Part shown: positions 18,826 to 55,426 of the stretch, one piece after another
Layout of the letters: each line of letters begins with the position of its first letter
Numbering within the stretch: position 1 is the stretch's first letter
Assembly: GCA_038150265.1 (NCBI GenBank)
Contig: JAYOTF010000005.1
Span: 46,469 to 110,468, forward strand
Direction: 5' to 3'
DNA from: Deltaproteobacteria bacterium
GTDB taxonomy: Bacteria > SAR324 > NAC60-12
Length of the DNA: 64,000 nucleotides
The notes under the pieces: generated by a model
Seen by the model: the letters and a program-made list of their open reading frames with translations, nothing else
Database searches by the model: none
What the model was told of the DNA's origin: nothing
Program-made: the position numbers and the translations under genes

Positions 18826-19788
18826 TCAGGCAAGCGCACGCGCCTGCTGCCGCTGGGGGTCCAGGACCCGAAACGCCTGACGCTGGCGCGCCTGGAACTG
18901 CTTCGGGGTGACGCCCTTGATGCTCTTGAAGAGGTTGATGAAGTAGCTCACTGAGGTGAAGCCCATCATGAAGCAGACCTCTGTGACCGAGTGGTCCGGG
19001 TGCTGCAGCAACTGACAGGCGCGGTCGATGCGGAGCTGGTTGATGTACTGAACGGGCGTGAAGCCGAATTCATTCTTGAAGCACCGGAAGAGGTTGGTCT
19101 TGCTCATCCCTGCGTGCTTGGCCAGTTCCTCAATGGAAATGGCGCGGTGCAGGTTCTTCTTGATGAACTCAGCCGCCTCGGAGAGGCTGTGACAGGGTGC
19201 ATGCTGGCTACTGTTCCAGAGCCACCTCGACGAGGCATCAAACTGCAGCATCCGGATCACCAGCTCCATGACCTTGACGTCAATGAGCTTGTCCCGAAGC
19301 GGGTGATTTTCGGTGAACACGGTCACCAGGTTGGCCACAATGCCTTCAATCTGGACCGAGTTGCGAAAGTGGTACTGGTTGTTCGGGTCGTAGCGCCACT
19401 CTCCCGATTCCTCTGCCCGAGGCATCTGCTCATTCATCCGTCCCACAATCTGCTGGACCTTCTGGGTGTCGATCTCCACCGTCAGGCACTTGGTCGGTTG
19501 CTCCAGCTGAGCTTCCGGGAAATCGATGTGGATTTCCTCACCGGGAGGCACCACCAGAGACTCTCCGGGCAAAAAGTCGAAGAGTGGATAGCTTTTGAAG
19601 TGGATGACCTTGCGGCCTGTGACCATGCCGCAGTACAGAGGATTGGAAGAACTGAGCGCGACCCGCTCGGCACGCTGGTAGGTGTCATAGACCGAAAACT
19701 CCGTGTCTTCGCCTCCGAAGACGGTCCGGTTCTCGATCAACTTCAACGGTTTGTGGGTCCGCTGGATGCGCTGAAGTTGTTGTTCCAT
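18826..19788 (-). CDS. AraC-family transcriptional regulator
   Basis: Start MEQQLQ at 19788 with GGAGGTG RBS. C-terminal AraC HTH (AGMSKTNLFRCFKNEFGFTPVQYINQLRIDRACQLL). Confidence 0.9.
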   Translation of the reverse strand: MEQQLQRIQRTHKPLKLIENRTVFGGEDTEFSVYDTYQRAERVALSSSNPLYCGMVTGRKVIHFKSYPLFDFLPGESLVVPPGEEIHIDFPEAQLEQPTKCLTVEIDTQKVQQIVGRMNEQMPRAEESGEWRYDPNNQYHFRNSVQIEGIVANLVTVFTENHPLRDKLIDVKVMELVIRMLQFDASSRWLWNSSQHAPCHSLSEAAEFIKKNLHRAISIEELAKHAGMSKTNLFRCFKNEFGFTPVQYINQLRIDRACQLLQHPDHSVTEVCFMMGFTSVSYFINLFKSIKGVTPKQFQARQRQAFRVLDPQRQQARALA

Positions 19789-20053
19789 GTACACCTCCGT
19801 GACCTTCCCAAGTGCGGGCCCCATGCCACTCACTTGGCGTCGGACACACTAGTGACTCGCCCTCGTCATGTCAAGCCGAACCCCCACCAGAGTCCCTATA
19901 TTTTTCCCAGCCGCCGTCGCCATTTCGCTTCCGCATTTTCCTCCTCTTTCCTACACTCTTTTTCCTGGTTCTCACGTAGGGAACCTCCTTCAGGCATTTC
20001 TGGTCGGAGCCTGGTGTTTGGAGGCCTTCCCCCATCCTCATCCTGGAGCCTGT

Positions 20054-20701
20054 GTGTCAACAACACTTGTGATTGGAAACAAAAACTACTCCTCCTGGTC
20101 TCTGCGCCCCTGGCTGTTCCTCCGGCACTTTGAGGTCCCCTTTGCCGAAGTGCGGATTCCTCTGGATGAGCCGGAAACGGCGAGGCGCATCCGGGAGTAC
20201 AGTGCCGCGGGGAAGGTTCCGGTGCTGCTGCATGACGGGCGGACGGTCTGGGAGTCGCTGGCGATTCTGGAGTACAGCAATGAGCAGTGGGACCTGAAGG
20301 GGCTGCCCGAGGCTCCGGAGGCTCGGGCGGTGTGCCGCTCGGTGTGTGCCGAAATGCACAGCGGCTTCTCAGCCCTCCGGAATGCGCTCCCCATGAATTG
20401 CCGCCGAAGAGTCCCCGATTTCGCGCTCCCTGAAGCCGTGCAGCAGGACGTGACGCGCATTCAGCAGGTCTGGCAGGAGTGTCGGGACGCCTTCGGGAGT
20501 GCTGGGCCGTGGCTGTTTGGCACCTTCAGCATGGCAGATGCGATGTTTGCGCCTGTGGCCTCACGCTTTCAGACGTATGGCGTCGCACTGGAAAATGAGG
20601 CAAGGCGGTACGTCGAGACGGTGCTGGGACACCCGGCGATGCAGGAGTGGGAGGCTGCCGCGCAGGCAGAGTCTGAGGTGGTTGAGGCAGAAGAGGTCTG
20701 A
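20054..20701 (+). CDS. Glutathione S-transferase family protein
   Basis: GTG start giving (M)STTLVIGNKNYSSWSLRPW. GST N- and C-terminal folds. Longer ORF from 19868 judged unlikely. Confidence 0.75.
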   Translation: MSTTLVIGNKNYSSWSLRPWLFLRHFEVPFAEVRIPLDEPETARRIREYSAAGKVPVLLHDGRTVWESLAILEYSNEQWDLKGLPEAPEARAVCRSVCAEMHSGFSALRNALPMNCRRRVPDFALPEAVQQDVTRIQQVWQECRDAFGSAGPWLFGTFSMADAMFAPVASRFQTYGVALENEARRYVETVLGHPAMQEWEAAAQAESEVVEAEEV

Positions 20702-33899: not shown

Positions 33900-34208
33900 T
33901 CAGTAGGCGAGAACCGACTCGCGCACCAGTCCGGTGCGCATCCGGAAGCGGCGTCCCTTGCGTCCTGGTGCTCCCTGGCCGTTGATGCGTTCCAGGATGC
34001 CTTTGGCTTCCAGGTCGCTGAGAACGCGGGAGACGTGTTCTCGTGCGCAGCCCAGCATTTCAGCGGTCTGGGACACGTGCAGCTGCACCTCACCGTTGTC
34101 TTGCAGGGACTTCATGCAGAAGAGCAGCACCTGCAGCTTCTTGGTGGCCCCCAACTCTTCGGAGAGCGCCAGAAGTTCGGACAGGTTGATTTCAATGTAC
34201 TGAGACAC
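33900..34208 (-). CDS. Small winged-helix/HTH transcriptional regulator
   Basis: HTH-like segment VSQTAEMLGCAREHVSRVLSDLEAKGILERI. 102 aa. Divergent from an SDR gene. Confidence 0.5.
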   Translation of the reverse strand: MSQYIEINLSELLALSEELGATKKLQVLLFCMKSLQDNGEVQLHVSQTAEMLGCAREHVSRVLSDLEAKGILERINGQGAPGRKGRRFRMRTGLVRESVLAY

Positions 34209-34458
34209 AGGCGGAGTTCGGACAGAAGTAAAATCAAACAGGTCCTACCTTAAGCCGCCTCTGTTAGCTTATGATTAAGAGATCTGTGAAGTTGCATTTA
34301 TTTTCGGAGCTCTGCTCTTCTTGCCTGGGGGCTCTGCCACGGCTCCCGTTTCACCCGGGTCCCATGGTGAAGCTCAGGCTGCTTTTGAACTTGGCCCTCC
34401 ACGCCAGAGTTCTTATGCTGGCCCGGACTTTTTGATGAACCCTTGTTGGCAAAGAAAC

Positions 34459-35220
34459 ATGACAGCAGCAGAGAAGCGAGTGGCCCTGGTGACCGGAGCC
34501 GGATCAGGAATTGGACGAGCCGCCGCCCTGGCTCTTCAGGGAGAAGGCTACCACGTCTTCCTCACGGGGCGGCGGGAGGACGCGCTGCAGGCGACCGCAG
34601 CGGAAGCTCAGGCCTCCGGAGGCGCTGTGCATTGTGTTCCGGCTGATGTCGCGTCACCAGAGGAGGTGAGCCGCCTGTTTCAGCAAATTCAGGAAACGTA
34701 CGGACGCCTGGATGTCCTCTTCAACAACGCAGGAGTGGGAGCGCCACCGGTGGGGTTTGACGAGCTGACATTTGAGGACTGGAAGCGGGTGGTGGACATC
34801 AACCTCAACGGCGCCTTTCTCTGCGCCCAGGCGGCCTTCCGGATGATGCGGGAGCAGACGCCGCAGGGTGGGCGCATCATCAACAATGGCTCCATTTCGG
34901 CACAGGTTCCGCGTCCGAATTCGGCTCCCTACACGGCGACCAAGCACGCCATCACCGGCCTCACCCGGAGCCTTTCGCTGGATGGGCGCCCCTACCGGAT
35001 TGCCTGCAGTCAGTTGGATATCGGAAACGCGGAGACGCCGATGACGGCACGGATGAAGGACGGGGTGCCTCAGGCCAACGGAACCCGGCAACCCGAGCCG
35101 GTGATGGGGGTGCAGCATGTGGCCGACAGCGTGGTGCTGATGGCCAACCTGCCGCTGGAGGCGAATGTGCAGTTCATGACCCTGATGGCCACGAATATGC
35201 CCTTCATTGGGCGGGGTTAA
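34459..35220 (+). CDS. Short-chain dehydrogenase/reductase (SDR)
   Basis: Start [34 protein letters not shown] catalytic motif. Confidence 0.85.
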
Positions 35221-52228: not shown

Positions 52229-53017
52229 TTAGAGGCGAGTGAACTCAACTCGGCGGTTCTGGGACCAGGCCGACTCATTGCTTCCGGAAGCGACCGGACG
52301 CTCTTCGCCGAAGCTGATCATGGTCAGCTGCTGAGGGGTGGCCCCCAGGCGCACCAGGTAGTCGTAAACGGTACGGGCGCGGCGCTCTCCCAACGCGAGG
52401 TTGTATTCATTGGTGCCTCGCTCGTCACAGTGGCCTTCCAGCTGAATCCGCACTCCCGGATTTTCCTGCATCCACGCGAAGTTTCGGCGAATGGTGGCCT
52501 CAAACTCCGGTCGCAGCTCGCTCTTGTCGTAGTCGAAGTACACAATTTCCAAGTCTGCCATGGCCATGGAGGGCTCTTCCACAGGAGCAGCGAGGATCAC
52601 CGCCGGCTCACGAGGAGGAAGAACTTCTGCCGGGGCATCATCGACACGAGCCATCAACTGCTCGGCCTCTTCCTGAGCTTCTGCCGTCGGAGCTGTTTCA
52701 ATCAGGTTCTGGACGGTCTCTTTGACCGCAGTTTGTGTCTGCTCGACCGATCGGGTCGGAGGCTCAGGCTGCGGTGCCGGTTGGGGCTCAGGCTTCGGAG
52801 CAGGTGCTGGTTTCGGAGCAGGTGCTGGTTTCGGAGCAGGTGCCTTGACCGCTTCCTCTACTTGCGCAACAACTTTTTCTGCCTCGGTTTTGGCTTCTGC
52901 TGCGACTTCTTCTGTTTGCTCAGGTTCGGGAGCAACTTCAGCAGACTTCTTGGCACAGCCGGTGACGACCAGGCTGATTGCCATGAGAAGGTAAATCAAA
53001 ATAAGCGATTTTCGCAT
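52229..53017 (-). CDS. OmpA-family peptidoglycan-associated lipoprotein (Pal-like) with APKPAP linker
   Basis: Lipobox MRKSLILIYLLMAISLVVTGC. C-terminal OmpA domain (NEYNLALGERRARTVYDYL, RRVEFTRL). Confidence 0.8.
   Translation of the reverse strand: MRKSLILIYLLMAISLVVTGCAKKSAEVAPEPEQTEEVAAEAKTEAEKVVAQVEEAVKAPAPKPAPAPKPAPAPKPEPQPAPQPEPPTRSVEQTQTAVKETVQNLIETAPTAEAQEEAEQLMARVDDAPAEVLPPREPAVILAAPVEEPSMAMADLEIVYFDYDKSELRPEFEATIRRNFAWMQENPGVRIQLEGHCDERGTNEYNLALGERRARTVYDYLVRLGATPQQLTMISFGEERPVASGSNESAWSQNRRVEFTRL
52787..52843. repeat. 18-bp tandem repeat (about 3 copies) encoding the APAPKP linker of the Pal-like protein
   Basis: aggtgctggtttcggagc repeated head-to-tail on the plus strand. Confidence 0.6.
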
Positions 53018-53179
53018 GATTTTTGAGTCGAGTGAGCGGTTGAGGAAATTTGGGGAAGCCTGGACCGAAGACCTGGGAGACACTTTCGGATTTGGCCAAA
53101 GCATCCTTTTTACCGGTTTAACCACCGATTGTCAATGCAAACTCCTTTTTCCGGTAAAGTGTTTTTGCGTTGAGTCCCC

Positions 53180-53210
53180 CAGACACTCATTGTACAAAAT
53201 TTTTGTACAA
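53180..53210 (+). promoter_or_regulatory. Promoter with perfect 21-bp operator palindrome TTGTACAAAA-T-TTTTGTACAA upstream of the acyl-CoA dehydrogenase gene
   Basis: Palindrome at 53190-53210. Its 3' half contains TACAAT (-10) about 28 nt before the ATG. Confidence 0.5.
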
Positions 53211-53237
53211 TTTTGCCACCTTAGCGAAGGATTTCTC

Positions 53238-54437
53238 ATGCCTGATTTTTCGGTCGATCCCTCCACCGCCGCCTTTGTCCACCGGCTCCGTGAGTTTGTG
53301 GACACGCACTTGATTCCGTTGGAGGACCAGCCGGATGCGTATGATGAAGGCGAGAATTTAGCTGAACCTCACCTGTCCCGCCTCCGGAGCCTGGCCCGGG
53401 AATCAGGGCTTTGGGCCCTGCAGATGCCCACGGCTCGGGGCGGGCAAGGCTTTTCGGTTTCTGCGATGGCGGTGTGTTATGAGGCAATGAACCGCAGCCT
53501 CTTCGGACCCGTGGTGTTCAACTGTGCGGCTCCGGATGACGGAAACATGATCCTGCTGGAACGCGTGGGGACCGAAGCTCAAAAGGAGCGCTGGCTCCAG
53601 CCGATTATTGACGGGAAGGTGCGGTCTGCCTTTGCCATGACGGAACCGGCCCCCGGAGCCGGCTCCGATCCTGCGGGGGCGATGAAGACCACGGCCACCC
53701 GTGAAGGAGACGAATGGGTCATTCAGGGACGGAAGTGGTACATCACCGGGGCCGGAGTGGCCCAGCACTTCATTCTCATTGCCCGGACTTCAGATCATCC
53801 GCGCAAGGGCCTGACGGCGTTTCTGTTTGATCGGGACGATCCCGGATGGGAGATCGTGCGGCGGATTCCGATACTGGGGCCCGAGGAGCATGGCGGACAC
53901 TGTGAGCTTCAGTTTGACGGCCTCCGGATTCCAGATGCCAACCGACTGATGGAGGTGGGGGATGGGCTCAAGGCCACCCAGATCCGCTTGGGCACCGCCC
54001 GTCTGACTCACTGCATGCGCTGGTTGGGGCTGGCGAAACGCTCCCTGGAAATTGCCCGGGGGTACATTCAGGAACGGCAGGCCTTTGGGCAGACGCTGGC
54101 AGAACATGAAGGCGTGCAGTGGATGCTGGGAGAAGCCGCCATGCAGATCCAGGTGGGACGCCTGCTCACCCGTCAGGCGGCCTGGAAGCTCGACCAGGGG
54201 GACTTTGCCCGCAAGGAGGTTTCCATGGCCAAGATCGCGGTGGCCGACACCCTCCACCACGCGGTGGACACCGCCATTCAGCTCTGTGGCGCCCGCGGGT
54301 ATTCCAAAGATACGGTGCTGGAGTGGATCTACCGCTACGCACGGCAGGCTCGGCTTGTGGATGGGGCGTCCGAGGTGCACAAGATGGTGCTGGCGCGGAA
54401 CTACCTTCAGGAAGGCGACGACTTCTGGGGGATCTGA
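53238..54437 (+). CDS. Acyl-CoA dehydrogenase
   Basis: ATG at 53238 with AAGGA RBS. ACAD N-, middle and C-terminal domains. 400 aa. Confidence 0.9.
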   Translation: MPDFSVDPSTAAFVHRLREFVDTHLIPLEDQPDAYDEGENLAEPHLSRLRSLARESGLWALQMPTARGGQGFSVSAMAVCYEAMNRSLFGPVVFNCAAPDDGNMILLERVGTEAQKERWLQPIIDGKVRSAFAMTEPAPGAGSDPAGAMKTTATREGDEWVIQGRKWYITGAGVAQHFILIARTSDHPRKGLTAFLFDRDDPGWEIVRRIPILGPEEHGGHCELQFDGLRIPDANRLMEVGDGLKATQIRLGTARLTHCMRWLGLAKRSLEIARGYIQERQAFGQTLAEHEGVQWMLGEAAMQIQVGRLLTRQAAWKLDQGDFARKEVSMAKIAVADTLHHAVDTAIQLCGARGYSKDTVLEWIYRYARQARLVDGASEVHKMVLARNYLQEGDDFWGI

Positions 54438-55426
54438 GGGCCCGGAAACCGACACCGGACCGAGTGATGCTCAGAGCCCTCCAGCGGAGGAAGGGCCGCT
54501 TGGCAGACCGGCTGGGCCCGGGGGCATCGGTCCTGAAACCGGCACCCCAGGGGAAGCTCCAGCAGCGTCGGGACCGTTCCGGGGATGTTGTACAGGCGCT
54601 CCTCCTGCCCAAGGTGGTGCTGAGCAGAGGGGATGGCCTGCATCAGCCCCTGCGTGTAGGGGTGCTGCGGGTCATCAAACAGCGCCTCGACCTCTGCCTC
54701 TTCCACCACATCACCTGCATACATGACGGCCACCCGGTCAGCCATCTCGGCAATCACGCCCAGGTCATGAGTGATCATCAAAATCGCAGTCCCGTACTTT
54801 TGCTGCAGCTCGCGCATCAGGTCCAGGATCTGCGCCTGAATCGTCACATCCAGCGCGGTGGTGGGCTCGTCGGCAATGAGCAGATCCGGCTCGCAGGCGA
54901 GGGCCATGGCGATCATCACCCGCTGTCGCATGCCGCCACTGAGCTCGTGCGGAAACCGGCGGAGCTGATCTGCCGGATTGGGGAGGCCCACTTCCTGAAG
55001 CCAGTGGATGGCCTGCTGCTCGGCTGCCGCAGGACTCAGCTTCTGATGAAGCCGGAGGGGCTCCATCATCTGAGTGCCAATGGACAGCACCGGGTTGAGC
55101 CCCGTCATCGGATCCTGAAAGATCATGGCGATCCGGTTGCCGCGAACCTGGCGGATCCGGCGTGCGCCTGCCTGAAGCAGGTCCTCTCCTTCCAGACGGA
55201 CCTGCCCACCCAGAATGCGTCCGGGCTCTTCGATCAGCTGCATGATCGCCAGAGACGTCACACTCTTGCCACATCCGGACTCCCCCACCAGGCCCAGCAC
55301 CTCGCCGCGATGGAGCGTCAGGTTGAGCCCGTTGATGGCGCGCGCCACGCCTTGCCGGAGGAAGAACGCGACTTCCAGGCCCCGGACTTCCAGGAGGGGA
55401 GAGGGAGAATCAGCAACAGGGGTCAT
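54407..55426 (-). CDS. Oligopeptide/dipeptide-type ABC transporter ATP-binding protein (DppD/OppD-like), orphan
   Basis: GESGCGKS Walker [17 protein letters not shown]-terminal oligopeptide-ABC extension with Cys cluster. Confidence 0.85.

What the first reader, a model, noticed from the sequence alone, without database searches (positions are those of the whole stretch)
53180..53210. Perfect 21-bp palindrome overlapping the -10 of the acyl-CoA dehydrogenase promoter
TTGTACAAAA-T-TTTTGTACAA is a perfect 10-1-10 inverted repeat whose right arm contains TACAAT, about 28 nt upstream of the ACAD ATG. This is the classic geometry of a dimeric (TetR/FadR-type) repressor operator. No regulator gene is adjacent, so the cognate repressor is encoded elsewhere.
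Basis: seen in the sequence. Interest (0 to 1): 0.5.

Follow-up and report, generated by a model that had tools for sequence, protein, structure and literature searches.

The report
Operator-like palindrome before acyl-CoA dehydrogenase gene
A perfect 23-bp DNA palindrome just upstream of an acyl-CoA dehydrogenase gene is real and looks like an ordinary repressor binding site, but its regulator is not nearby and the sequence alone cannot say which protein family binds it.

Summary
The palindrome is real. It is one base longer per arm than reported: ATTGTACAAAA-T-TTTTGTACAAT, window 53189-53211, ending 26 nt before the ATG of a 399-aa acyl-CoA dehydrogenase (ACAD) gene.

Corrections:
- The two TGTACA hexamers are 7 nt apart (centre-to-centre 13 bp), not 9.
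- Support beyond chance is moderate. Some perfect palindrome with arms of at least 11 nt appeared in 5 of 40 shuffles of the window.
- It survives in the one sister species (1 change in 23), but 23% of 23-bp intergenic windows are that well conserved between the two.
- Syntenic relatives with 82% ACAD identity lack it.
- I found no second copy in the window, the related loci or the sister MAG.
- The window holds no TetR, GntR, MerR or antitoxin gene.

Across about 100 exact matches of the 19-bp core in public genomes and metagenomes, those next to a regulator gene lie directly upstream of:
- two unrelated TetR-family genes;
- three Phd/YefM antitoxin genes;
- one XRE gene.

Best reading: an operator where a symmetric repressor blocks the ACAD promoter. 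TetR-type is the most plausible family, but this is not shown. It does not match the E. coli FadR site. The finding is ordinary and of low interest.

The parts
53189..53211 (.). Perfect 11-1-11 palindrome ATTGTACAAAA-T-TTTTGTACAAT, the putative operator
   Evidence: It is the longest short-loop perfect palindrome in the window. The sister species keeps it with one change, T53190 to C.
53191..53196 (.). Left TGTACA hexamer (core of the 8-bp mini-palindrome TTGTACAA, 53190-53197)
53204..53209 (.). Right TGTACA hexamer (core of TTGTACAA, 53203-53210). It is 7 nt from the left hexamer, 13 bp centre-to-centre.
53206..53211 (+). Candidate -10 hexamer TACAAT (5 of 6 matches) with no recognisable -35 at 16-18 nt
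   Evidence: Read from the sequence. The promoter scan reported nothing. Inference only.
53170..53198 (+). Alternative candidate promoter: TTGAGT (53170-53175), 17-nt spacer, TACAAA (53193-53198, inside the left arm). It scores 4+4 of 12.
   Evidence: Read from the sequence. TTGAGT is conserved in the sister species. It falls below the scan's threshold. Inference only.
53227..53231 (+). Likely ribosome-binding site AAGGA, 6 nt before the ATG
   Evidence: Read from the sequence. AAGGA is conserved in the sister species while its flanks diverge.
53238..54437 (+). Acyl-CoA dehydrogenase gene (399 aa), the presumed regulated gene
   Evidence: Pfam N, middle and C-terminal ACAD domains. Homologues of 398-400 aa align at 99-100% coverage. 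It reaches no NCBIfam equivalog cut-off.
52229..53017 (-). Divergent neighbour: Pal-type OmpA-family lipoprotein (262 aa)
   Evidence: Pfam OmpA. TIGR02802 Pal scores 138 bits against a cut-off of 125. Lipobox VTGC.
53107..53135 (-). Likely promoter of the Pal-like gene: TTGACA, 17 nt, TAAAAA on the minus strand. It is separate from the palindrome.
   Evidence: It is the only spacer block conserved out to the relatives with 82% ACAD identity, L002-L004, which read TTGACA-N17-TAGAAA.

Best explanation
The palindrome is a DNA operator. A symmetric DNA-binding repressor, encoded elsewhere in the genome, binds 53189-53211. The repressor would be a homodimer centred on 53200, or two dimers, one on each TTGTACAA unit. 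The site covers both -10-like hexamers and the probable transcription start of the ACAD gene, so the bound protein keeps RNA polymerase off. Release, presumably on binding a small ligand such as an acyl-CoA, allows transcription. A TetR-family repressor is the most plausible binder.

Shown: the sequence, its symmetry, its position, its uniqueness locally, and the use of the identical sequence next to regulator genes in other organisms.

Inferred: that any protein binds here, the family of that protein, the promoter position and the ligand.
For: - It is a perfect 11-1-11 palindrome and the longest in the window.
- It is AT-rich in a genome of about 60% G+C.
- It lies in the 220-bp spacer 26 nt before the ACAD ATG and contains the only -10-like hexamers.
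- The sister species retains it with one outer change. It sits in a conserved block, 53184-53218, with much more diverged sequence immediately 3'.
- The identical 19-bp core lies at probable autoregulatory positions of two unrelated TetR genes. In L021 it is about 19 nt before the ATG. In L027 it follows TTGACT-17-TATAGT and ends 16 nt before the ATG.
- Published TetR precedent for TGTACA palindromes: the E. coli RcdA autoregulatory site TTGTGTACAttTGTACACAA (PMC3535384).
- Global symmetry extends beyond the two 8-bp units, into the AA-T-TT spacer and the outer A/T pair. That fits a single dyad axis.
- As RNA, the hairpin is no more stable than shuffled sequence (z = -1.1), and there is no Rfam match.
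Against: - No regulator gene lies within the window.
- No second site was found: nothing at 14 or more of 20 matches in the window or sister locus, and the weaker hits in L002, L005 and L038 (up to 14 of 20) are at chance level. The exact core occurs once in the sister MAG.
- A single-target operator far from its regulator is unusual.
- Conservation is uninformative. There is only one independent comparison, and 23% of 23-bp intergenic windows do as well.
- The syntenic relatives with 82% ACAD identity lack the palindrome.
- More distant orthologues sit inside operons with no adjacent regulator.
- No sigma-70 promoter passes a consensus scan.
- A palindrome this long somewhere in 64 kb has a chance probability of about 0.1.
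Confidence: 0.5

Rival explanations
1. It is a Phd/YefM-type antitoxin operator. A type II antitoxin or toxin-antitoxin complex encoded elsewhere binds the two TGTACA hexamers. The site would be either a relic or captured toxin-antitoxin (TA) promoter now driving the ACAD gene, or a cross-regulated target.
For: - Three independent Phd/YefM antitoxin genes have exactly this 19-bp core 12-30 nt before their start. These are L022 with a PIN toxin, L050/L070 with a PIN toxin, and L069.
- L050/L070 and L069 have TATAAT abutting the palindrome; L022 has no such hexamer there.
- Their nearest solved relative is VapB46.
- The published E. coli YefM-YoeB operator is a pair of TGTACA palindromes over the -10. 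Its long repeat TCATTGTACAATGA shares TCATTGTACAA with window 53186-53196 (PMC1802561).
Against: - The gene downstream is an ACAD, not an antitoxin, and there is no small ORF in between.
- tblastn finds no Phd/YefM homologue in the window or related loci.
- The published spacing is 12 bp centre-to-centre, and here it is 13.
- The abutting TATAAT seen in two of the three antitoxin groups is absent here (CTCATT).
- The relatives lacking the palindrome show no sign of a lost cassette.
Confidence: 0.12
2. It is a chance or neutrally arisen AT-rich palindrome with no dedicated binding protein. Its apparent conservation reflects only the short divergence time from the sister species.
For: - Arms of at least 11 nt arise in 5 of 40 shuffled windows.
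- 23% of intergenic 23-mers are equally conserved.
- The next relatives lack it.
- There is no second copy and no regulator nearby.
- The exact core occurs in public genomes at roughly the number I estimate by hand for chance. The scan gave 28 stretches, several of them homologous to each other, against about 9-17 expected for an 18-base palindromic pattern in 596 Gb.
Against: - It falls in the small intergenic fraction, right at a promoter-proximal position.
- It is perfect over 23 bp and the top palindrome of the real window.
- The one substitution in the sister species is at the edge.
- The same sequence is demonstrably positioned as an operator elsewhere.
Confidence: 0.22
3. It acts as RNA: a 10-bp A/U-rich hairpin in the ACAD 5' leader that affects stability, termination or translation.
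For: The centroid fold forms the hairpin, followed by UUUUG. In other organisms the same core, extended by G+C-rich flanks, looks like a terminator: L042, L043, L045, L068, L090, L113, L019 and L111.
Against: - The fold is no better than shuffles: -10.8 against -8.2 +/- 2.3 kcal/mol, z = -1.1.
- The stem has only 2 G-C pairs per 10.
- The terminator scan found nothing.
- The hairpin does not touch the ribosome-binding site.
- There is no upstream co-directional gene to terminate.
- There is no Rfam hit.
- If either candidate -10 is used, transcription starts inside or after the palindrome.
Confidence: 0.05
4. It is simply part of the core promoter, an AT-rich -10/UP-like region, or a site for a general nucleoid protein rather than a specific repressor.
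For: It is the only strongly AT-rich stretch before the ACAD gene in DNA of about 60% G+C, and it contains TACAAA and TACAAT.
Against: A promoter has no need for perfect 23-bp dyad symmetry. Neither hexamer has a good -35.
Confidence: 0.08

Closest known systems
YefM-YoeB (Phd/YefM antitoxin) operators: paired TGTACA palindromes (Kedzierska et al. 2007, PMC1802561)
   Same: - Both have two TGTACA hexamers, each palindromic, close to or over a -10 and within 80 bp of a start codon.
- The left unit with its flank, TCATTGTACAA, equals the left part of the E. coli long repeat.
- Three Phd/YefM-VapC-type loci found here carry the identical 19-bp core.
   Different: - The published gap is 6 bp (12 bp centre-to-centre), and here it is 7 bp (13 bp).
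- The downstream gene is an acyl-CoA dehydrogenase, not an antitoxin.
- No antitoxin gene is in the window.
- Here the whole 23 bp is one perfect palindrome.
TetR-family operators, in particular the E. coli RcdA (YbjK) autoregulatory site TTGTGTACAttTGTACACAA (Shimada et al. 2012, PMC3535384), and the tetO-type odd-length palindrome
   Same: - Both are a perfect or near-perfect palindrome of about 20 bp containing TGTACA in each arm.
- Both have a central unpaired base like tetO (tetO from memory).
- Two TetR genes in other phyla have the identical core at autoregulatory positions.
   Different: - RcdA hexamers are 2 bp apart, not 7.
- The RcdA box TTGTnnACA matches TTGTACAAA at 8 of 9 positions only.
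- TetR operators usually lie beside the TetR gene, and none is in this window.
- The two TetR proteins found share only about 30% identity over 43 residues in the HTH region and are not close to RcdA.
E. coli FadR (GntR family) and Bacillus/Thermus FadR (TetR family) fatty-acid regulons
   Same: Both involve a palindromic site in front of an acyl-CoA dehydrogenase gene and a proposed acyl-CoA-responsive repressor.
   Different: - No sequence resemblance to those consensus sites. The consensus sequences are recalled from memory, not tested with a tool.
- No fad regulon copies were found.
- This ACAD's orthologues sit in SDR-ACAD-APH-DUF6285-POR operons rather than in beta-oxidation clusters.

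Membership tests
TetR-family operator | Palindrome of about 15-30 bp with a dyad axis, able to seat a homodimer or a pair of dimers | tested here: met
   11-1-11 perfect inverted repeat at 53189-53211
TetR-family operator | Overlaps the core promoter or transcription start of the regulated gene | tested here: inconclusive
   It contains TACAAA and TACAAT, but no sigma-70 promoter passes the consensus scan. There are no transcript data.
TetR-family operator | A cognate TetR gene nearby, usually divergent or adjacent (typical, not obligatory) | tested here: not met
   No TetR_N hit among 30 candidate ORFs in 1-46 kb. There is none in the syntenic sister locus gene list. tblastn with two TetR proteins is negative.
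TetR-family operator | The same sequence is used in front of TetR genes elsewhere | tested here: met
   L021 (TetR_N + TetR_C_30) and L027/L028/L065/L091 (TetR_N) have the exact core before their start, about 19 nt in L021 and 16 nt in L027
TetR-family operator | Specific binding by a TetR protein, relieved by a ligand | not testable with these tools
   Needs EMSA or footprinting
Phd/YefM antitoxin operator | Paired TGTACA hexamers | tested here: met
   53191-53196 and 53204-53209
Phd/YefM antitoxin operator | Centre-to-centre distance of 12 bp (6-bp gap), as published | tested here: not met
   The gap here is 7 bp, 13 bp centre-to-centre. The published value comes from PMC1802561. The three antitoxin loci found here also have 7 bp, by construction of the search pattern.
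Phd/YefM antitoxin operator | Lies within about 80 bp upstream of the antitoxin gene it autoregulates | tested here: not met
   The downstream gene is a 399-aa ACAD. There is no Phd/YefM homologue in the window.
E. coli FadR (GntR-type) operator | Match to the 17-bp FadR consensus (TGGTC...GACC-type half sites; recalled from memory) | tested here: not met
   By inspection the site has no TGG/CCA elements. No tool-based consensus scan was run.
RcdA box | TTGTnnACA units, palindromic pair TTGTGTACAttTGTACACAA | tested here: not met
   The unit here is TTGTACAAA (8 of 9). The hexamer gap is 7 against 2.
Intrinsic terminator / structured RNA | G+C-rich stem followed by a U tract, or a stability or family match | tested here: not met
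   No terminator-like site, fold z = -1.1, no Rfam match
   There is none in the 64-kb window or in the related loci beyond chance. The exact core occurs once in the sister MAG held in genome contigs (L015). The window's own genome was not available as a whole.

The most novel reading that the evidence does not exclude
A toxin-antitoxin-type operator (the Phd/YefM TGTACA pair) has been captured by a metabolic gene. An antitoxin or toxin-antitoxin complex encoded elsewhere would then couple expression of an acyl-CoA dehydrogenase to the state of the TA module. This would be cross-regulation of metabolism by a type II antitoxin.
Probability: 0.08. Interest if true: 0.55.

Novelty: new member of a known kind. 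Interest (0 to 1): 0.22.

Why it matters
If it is bound by a repressor, this is one more single-gene operator in an uncultured gammaproteobacterium. That is useful for annotating the ACAD as a regulated, probably substrate-induced gene, but it changes nothing conceptually.

The more general lesson is methodological. The same 19-bp sequence serves, or appears to serve, regulators of at least three unrelated families (TetR, Phd/YefM, XRE). It also appears as coding sequence and as terminator stems. An operator's sequence and geometry therefore do not identify the regulator family.

Tried and rejected
I replaced it with N7.
- Search for weaker copies: up to 3 mismatches, the half-site TTGTACAA, and at least 13 of 20 matches in the window, L001, L002, L005 and L038. 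All were at chance level.
- Phylogenetic footprinting: only two independent sequences carry the site. The conservation is not significant against the intergenic background.
- Exact-core scans of 185,579 genomes, the metagenome collection and viral contigs. These gave no further site from this clade and no ACAD-linked site elsewhere. The two viral hits repeat metagenome contigs L062 and L073, where the core lies inside long ORFs.
- Looking for the regulator: Pfam on 30 window ORFs and tblastn with TetR and antitoxin proteins. I found only an AraC-type and a small winged-HTH protein, neither linked to the site. The winged-HTH gene's own upstream region has no similar palindrome.
- ACAD orthologue neighbourhoods contain no conserved adjacent regulator.
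- RNA readings: fold, Rfam and terminator scan were all negative.
- Restriction-site avoidance of TGTACA was rejected.
- BLAST of the site against plasmids gave only chance-level hits.
- A literature search for the exact sequence was swamped by Gateway attB primers.
- TyrR box (TGTAAA-N6-TTTACA), CRP/FNR, NtcA and MerR-type spacer promoters were considered from memory. I rejected them on spacing: the G-to-C distance is one base too long for TyrR, the total length is 19-23 bp against 14-16 bp for CRP/FNR, and no 19-20-bp-spaced -35/-10 frames the dyad.

Full report
**What is there**

Perfect symmetry runs one pair further on each side: ATTGTACAAAA-T-TTTTGTACAAT, 53189-53211.

The element can also be read as two copies of the 8-bp palindrome TTGTACAA (53190-53197 and 53203-53210), separated by AATTT. 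The two TGTACA hexamers are therefore 7 nt apart, 13 bp centre-to-centre.

The downstream gene, 53238-54437 on the plus strand, is a 399-aa acyl-CoA dehydrogenase (ACAD). It has all four Pfam ACAD domains, and hundreds of homologues of 398-400 aa align at 99-100% coverage. The ATG at 53238 is therefore the real start, and 26 nt separate it from the palindrome.

The upstream gene is divergent. It is a Pal-type OmpA-family lipoprotein at 52229-53017 on the minus strand, followed by ExbB/ExbD-like genes. The intergenic spacer is 220 bp.

**Is it more than chance?**

The exact sequence never occurs in shuffles, but that is not the right test. I asked instead how often any perfect inverted repeat with a loop of 0-4 nt and arms of at least 11 nt appears in block-shuffled copies of the window. 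It appeared in 5 of 40.

So some palindrome this long somewhere in 64 kb has a probability of about 0.1.

Several facts raise confidence:
- It is the longest such palindrome in the real window. The next has 9-nt arms.
- It lies in intergenic DNA next to a start codon.
- It is an AT-rich island in DNA of about 60% G+C.
- TGTACA is not avoided in the window.

**Conservation**

The closest relatives carrying this ACAD are one sister species at 92-93% protein identity (L001, L008, L009 and L015, whose spacer sequences are identical) and a second group at 82% (L002-L004). Both are syntenic, with Pal next to the ACAD.

The sister species keeps cTGTACAAAATTTTTGTACAAT, one change in 23. The sequence just 3' of it, up to the ribosome-binding site, is heavily diverged.

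This is weak evidence, however. The two genomes are 84% identical over 20.8 kb, intergenic DNA is 82% identical, and 195 of 840 intergenic 23-mers (23%) have at most one mismatch.

The relatives with 82% ACAD identity have no palindrome at this position. The only spacer block conserved that far is TTGACA-N17-TAAAAA/TAGAAA on the minus strand (53135-53107). I read that as the promoter of the Pal-like gene, unrelated to the palindrome.

More distant orthologues (73-78%) sit inside SDR-ACAD-(APH-DUF6285)-POR operons with no regulator nearby and no similar palindrome.

**Promoter**

An alternative is TTGAGT (53170-53175), 17 nt, TACAAA (53193-53198). Both hexamers match 4 of 6, and TTGAGT is conserved in the sister species.

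The consensus scan reports no sigma-70 promoter in 52900-53350. Both candidate -10 hexamers lie inside the palindrome, so a protein bound there would occlude either one. The promoter itself remains an inference.

**Other copies and the regulator**

I found no second site:
- Nothing in the window with up to 3 mismatches.
- Nothing at 14 or more of 20 matches in the window or sister locus. Hits of up to 14 of 20 in L002, L005 and L038 are at the level seen in shuffles.
- The exact 19-bp core occurs once in the sister MAG present in the genome collection (L015).

I scanned 30 candidate ORFs of up to 355 aa in 1-46 kb with Pfam and used the gene calls of the syntenic sister locus for the rest. The only DNA-binding proteins are:
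- an AraC-type regulator at 18826-19833;
- an orphan 102-aa winged-HTH protein at 33900-34208;
- a CheY-like receiver without an output domain.

tblastn with TetR and antitoxin queries found nothing. The cognate protein, if there is one, is encoded outside this window. The window's own genome was not available as a whole.

**What the same sequence does elsewhere**

Exact scans with TGTACAAAANTTTTGTACA returned 28 stretches in 185,579 species genomes. By my own hand estimate this is near the 9-17 expected by chance for an 18-base palindromic pattern in 596 Gb. Metagenomes returned 74 stretches. None is from this clade apart from the sister MAG, and none precedes another ACAD.

Many matches are coding sequence, for example the last codons of hisH in Burkholderiales (...LYKNFV...). 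Others are the centre of longer, G+C-flanked, terminator-like hairpins.

The matches next to regulator genes are informative:
- **TetR.** Two unrelated TetR-family genes carry the core at autoregulatory positions. One is in a betaproteobacterium (L021, TetR_N + TetR_C_30), about 19 nt before the ATG. The other is a clostridial group (L027, L028, L065, L091), where TTGACT-17-TATAGT abuts the palindrome and the ATG follows 16 nt after it.
- **Phd/YefM.** Three independent antitoxin genes carry it 12-30 nt before their ATG: L022 with a PIN toxin, L050/L070 with a PIN toxin, and L069. L050/L070 and L069 have TATAAT abutting the palindrome, while L022 does not. The nearest solved relative is VapB46.
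- **XRE.** One XRE-DUF5753 gene, seen in L036 and L098.

The literature agrees on two of these. The E. coli YefM-YoeB operator is a pair of TGTACA palindromes 12 bp apart over the -10 (PMC1802561). The TetR-family regulator RcdA autoregulates through TTGTGTACAttTGTACACAA (PMC3535384).

So this sequence is a plausible operator, but for at least three unrelated protein families.

**Mechanism I commit to**

A symmetric repressor encoded elsewhere binds 53189-53211 and blocks RNA polymerase at the ACAD promoter. A ligand releases it. I put about 0.5 on 'specific repressor operator' for any family.

Within that, TetR-type is the most plausible:
- The target is a metabolic gene.
- The site is a single long odd-length dyad.
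- Symmetry extends beyond the two 8-bp units.
- Two TetR genes elsewhere use the same core.

A Phd/YefM antitoxin operator, captured or a relic, is a real rival at about 0.12. A functionless palindrome stands at about 0.2, given the weak statistics, the loss in the next relatives, and the absence of both a regulon and a regulator.

RNA-level roles are unlikely. The hairpin is no more stable than shuffles (z = -1.1), has 2 G-C pairs in 10, does not touch the ribosome-binding site, matches no Rfam family, and no terminator was found.

'FadR-type' is not supported. By inspection the site has none of the features of the E. coli FadR consensus, which I recalled from memory. The ACAD reaches no NCBIfam equivalog. 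Its orthologues sit in a gene set resembling the Pseudomonas lva (4-hydroxy-acid/levulinate) operon rather than fad genes (gene sets; the lva comparison is from memory).

**Verdict**

- It is an ordinary feature, a new member of a known kind, with low interest.
- The most novel reading the data allow is antitoxin-type control of a metabolic gene, at about 8% probability.

Noticed in passing
window 52794-52843 (within the Pal-like gene, 52229-53017, minus strand): A perfect 18-bp tandem repeat, 2.8 copies, encodes (APAPKP)n in a long Ala/Pro/Glu-rich linker of the Pal-type lipoprotein. The gene's length differs among relatives: 262 aa here, against called lengths of 286 and 276 aa at the two sister-species loci.
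   Followed up: partly
window 53107-53135, minus strand: TTGACA-N17-TAAAAA is the only part of the Pal-ACAD spacer conserved out to the relatives with 82% ACAD identity (TTGACA-N17-TAGAAA in L002-L004). It is probably the promoter of the Pal-like gene.
   Followed up: partly
window 33900-34208, minus strand: An orphan 102-aa protein consisting of little more than a Crp-type winged helix-turn-helix. It is divergent from a short-chain dehydrogenase gene (34321-35220). Its function is unknown, and there is no TGTACA palindrome in its upstream region.
   Followed up: partly
window 18826-19833, minus strand: An AraC_N + HTH_18 regulator next to a glutathione S-transferase-like gene (19868-20701). 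Apart from the small winged-HTH protein, it is the only transcription factor found among the ORFs scanned in the window.
   Followed up: no
L005-L007 9213-12622; L038 9214-14708: Orthologues of this ACAD (73-78% identity) sit in SDR-ACAD-APH(phosphotransferase)-DUF6285-POR operons. This gene set resembles the Pseudomonas putida lva (levulinate/4-hydroxy-acid) operon (from memory). In the window and its close relatives the ACAD stands alone between the Pal-like gene and a convergent ABC ATPase gene.
   Followed up: partly
L017, L020, L025, L029, L030, L056, L102 (Burkholderiales): The same 19-bp palindrome lies within the last codons of hisH (...LYKNFV...), just upstream of hisA. This is a conserved coding-sequence occurrence, not an operator.
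   Followed up: yes
L011 283-329; L034 and L037; L055, L064 (Chloroflexi/Anaerolineae): The core is flanked by further GTAC units (TTGTACGC-TGTACAAAAGTTTTGTACA-GCGTACAA), giving a four-unit, roughly 35-bp palindrome upstream of a membrane-protein gene. The binding protein is unknown.
   Followed up: no
L002 20146-20166: The palindrome TTTTCCAAAACGTTTTGGAAA lies beside a LacI-family gene (19029-20111, minus strand). It is a likely LacI-type operator, unrelated to the finding.
   Followed up: no
window 54407-54437: The ACAD gene and the convergent oligopeptide-type ABC ATPase gene (54407-55426, minus strand) overlap by 31 nt at their 3' ends. This ATPase has no permease or binding-protein gene beside it.
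   Followed up: no
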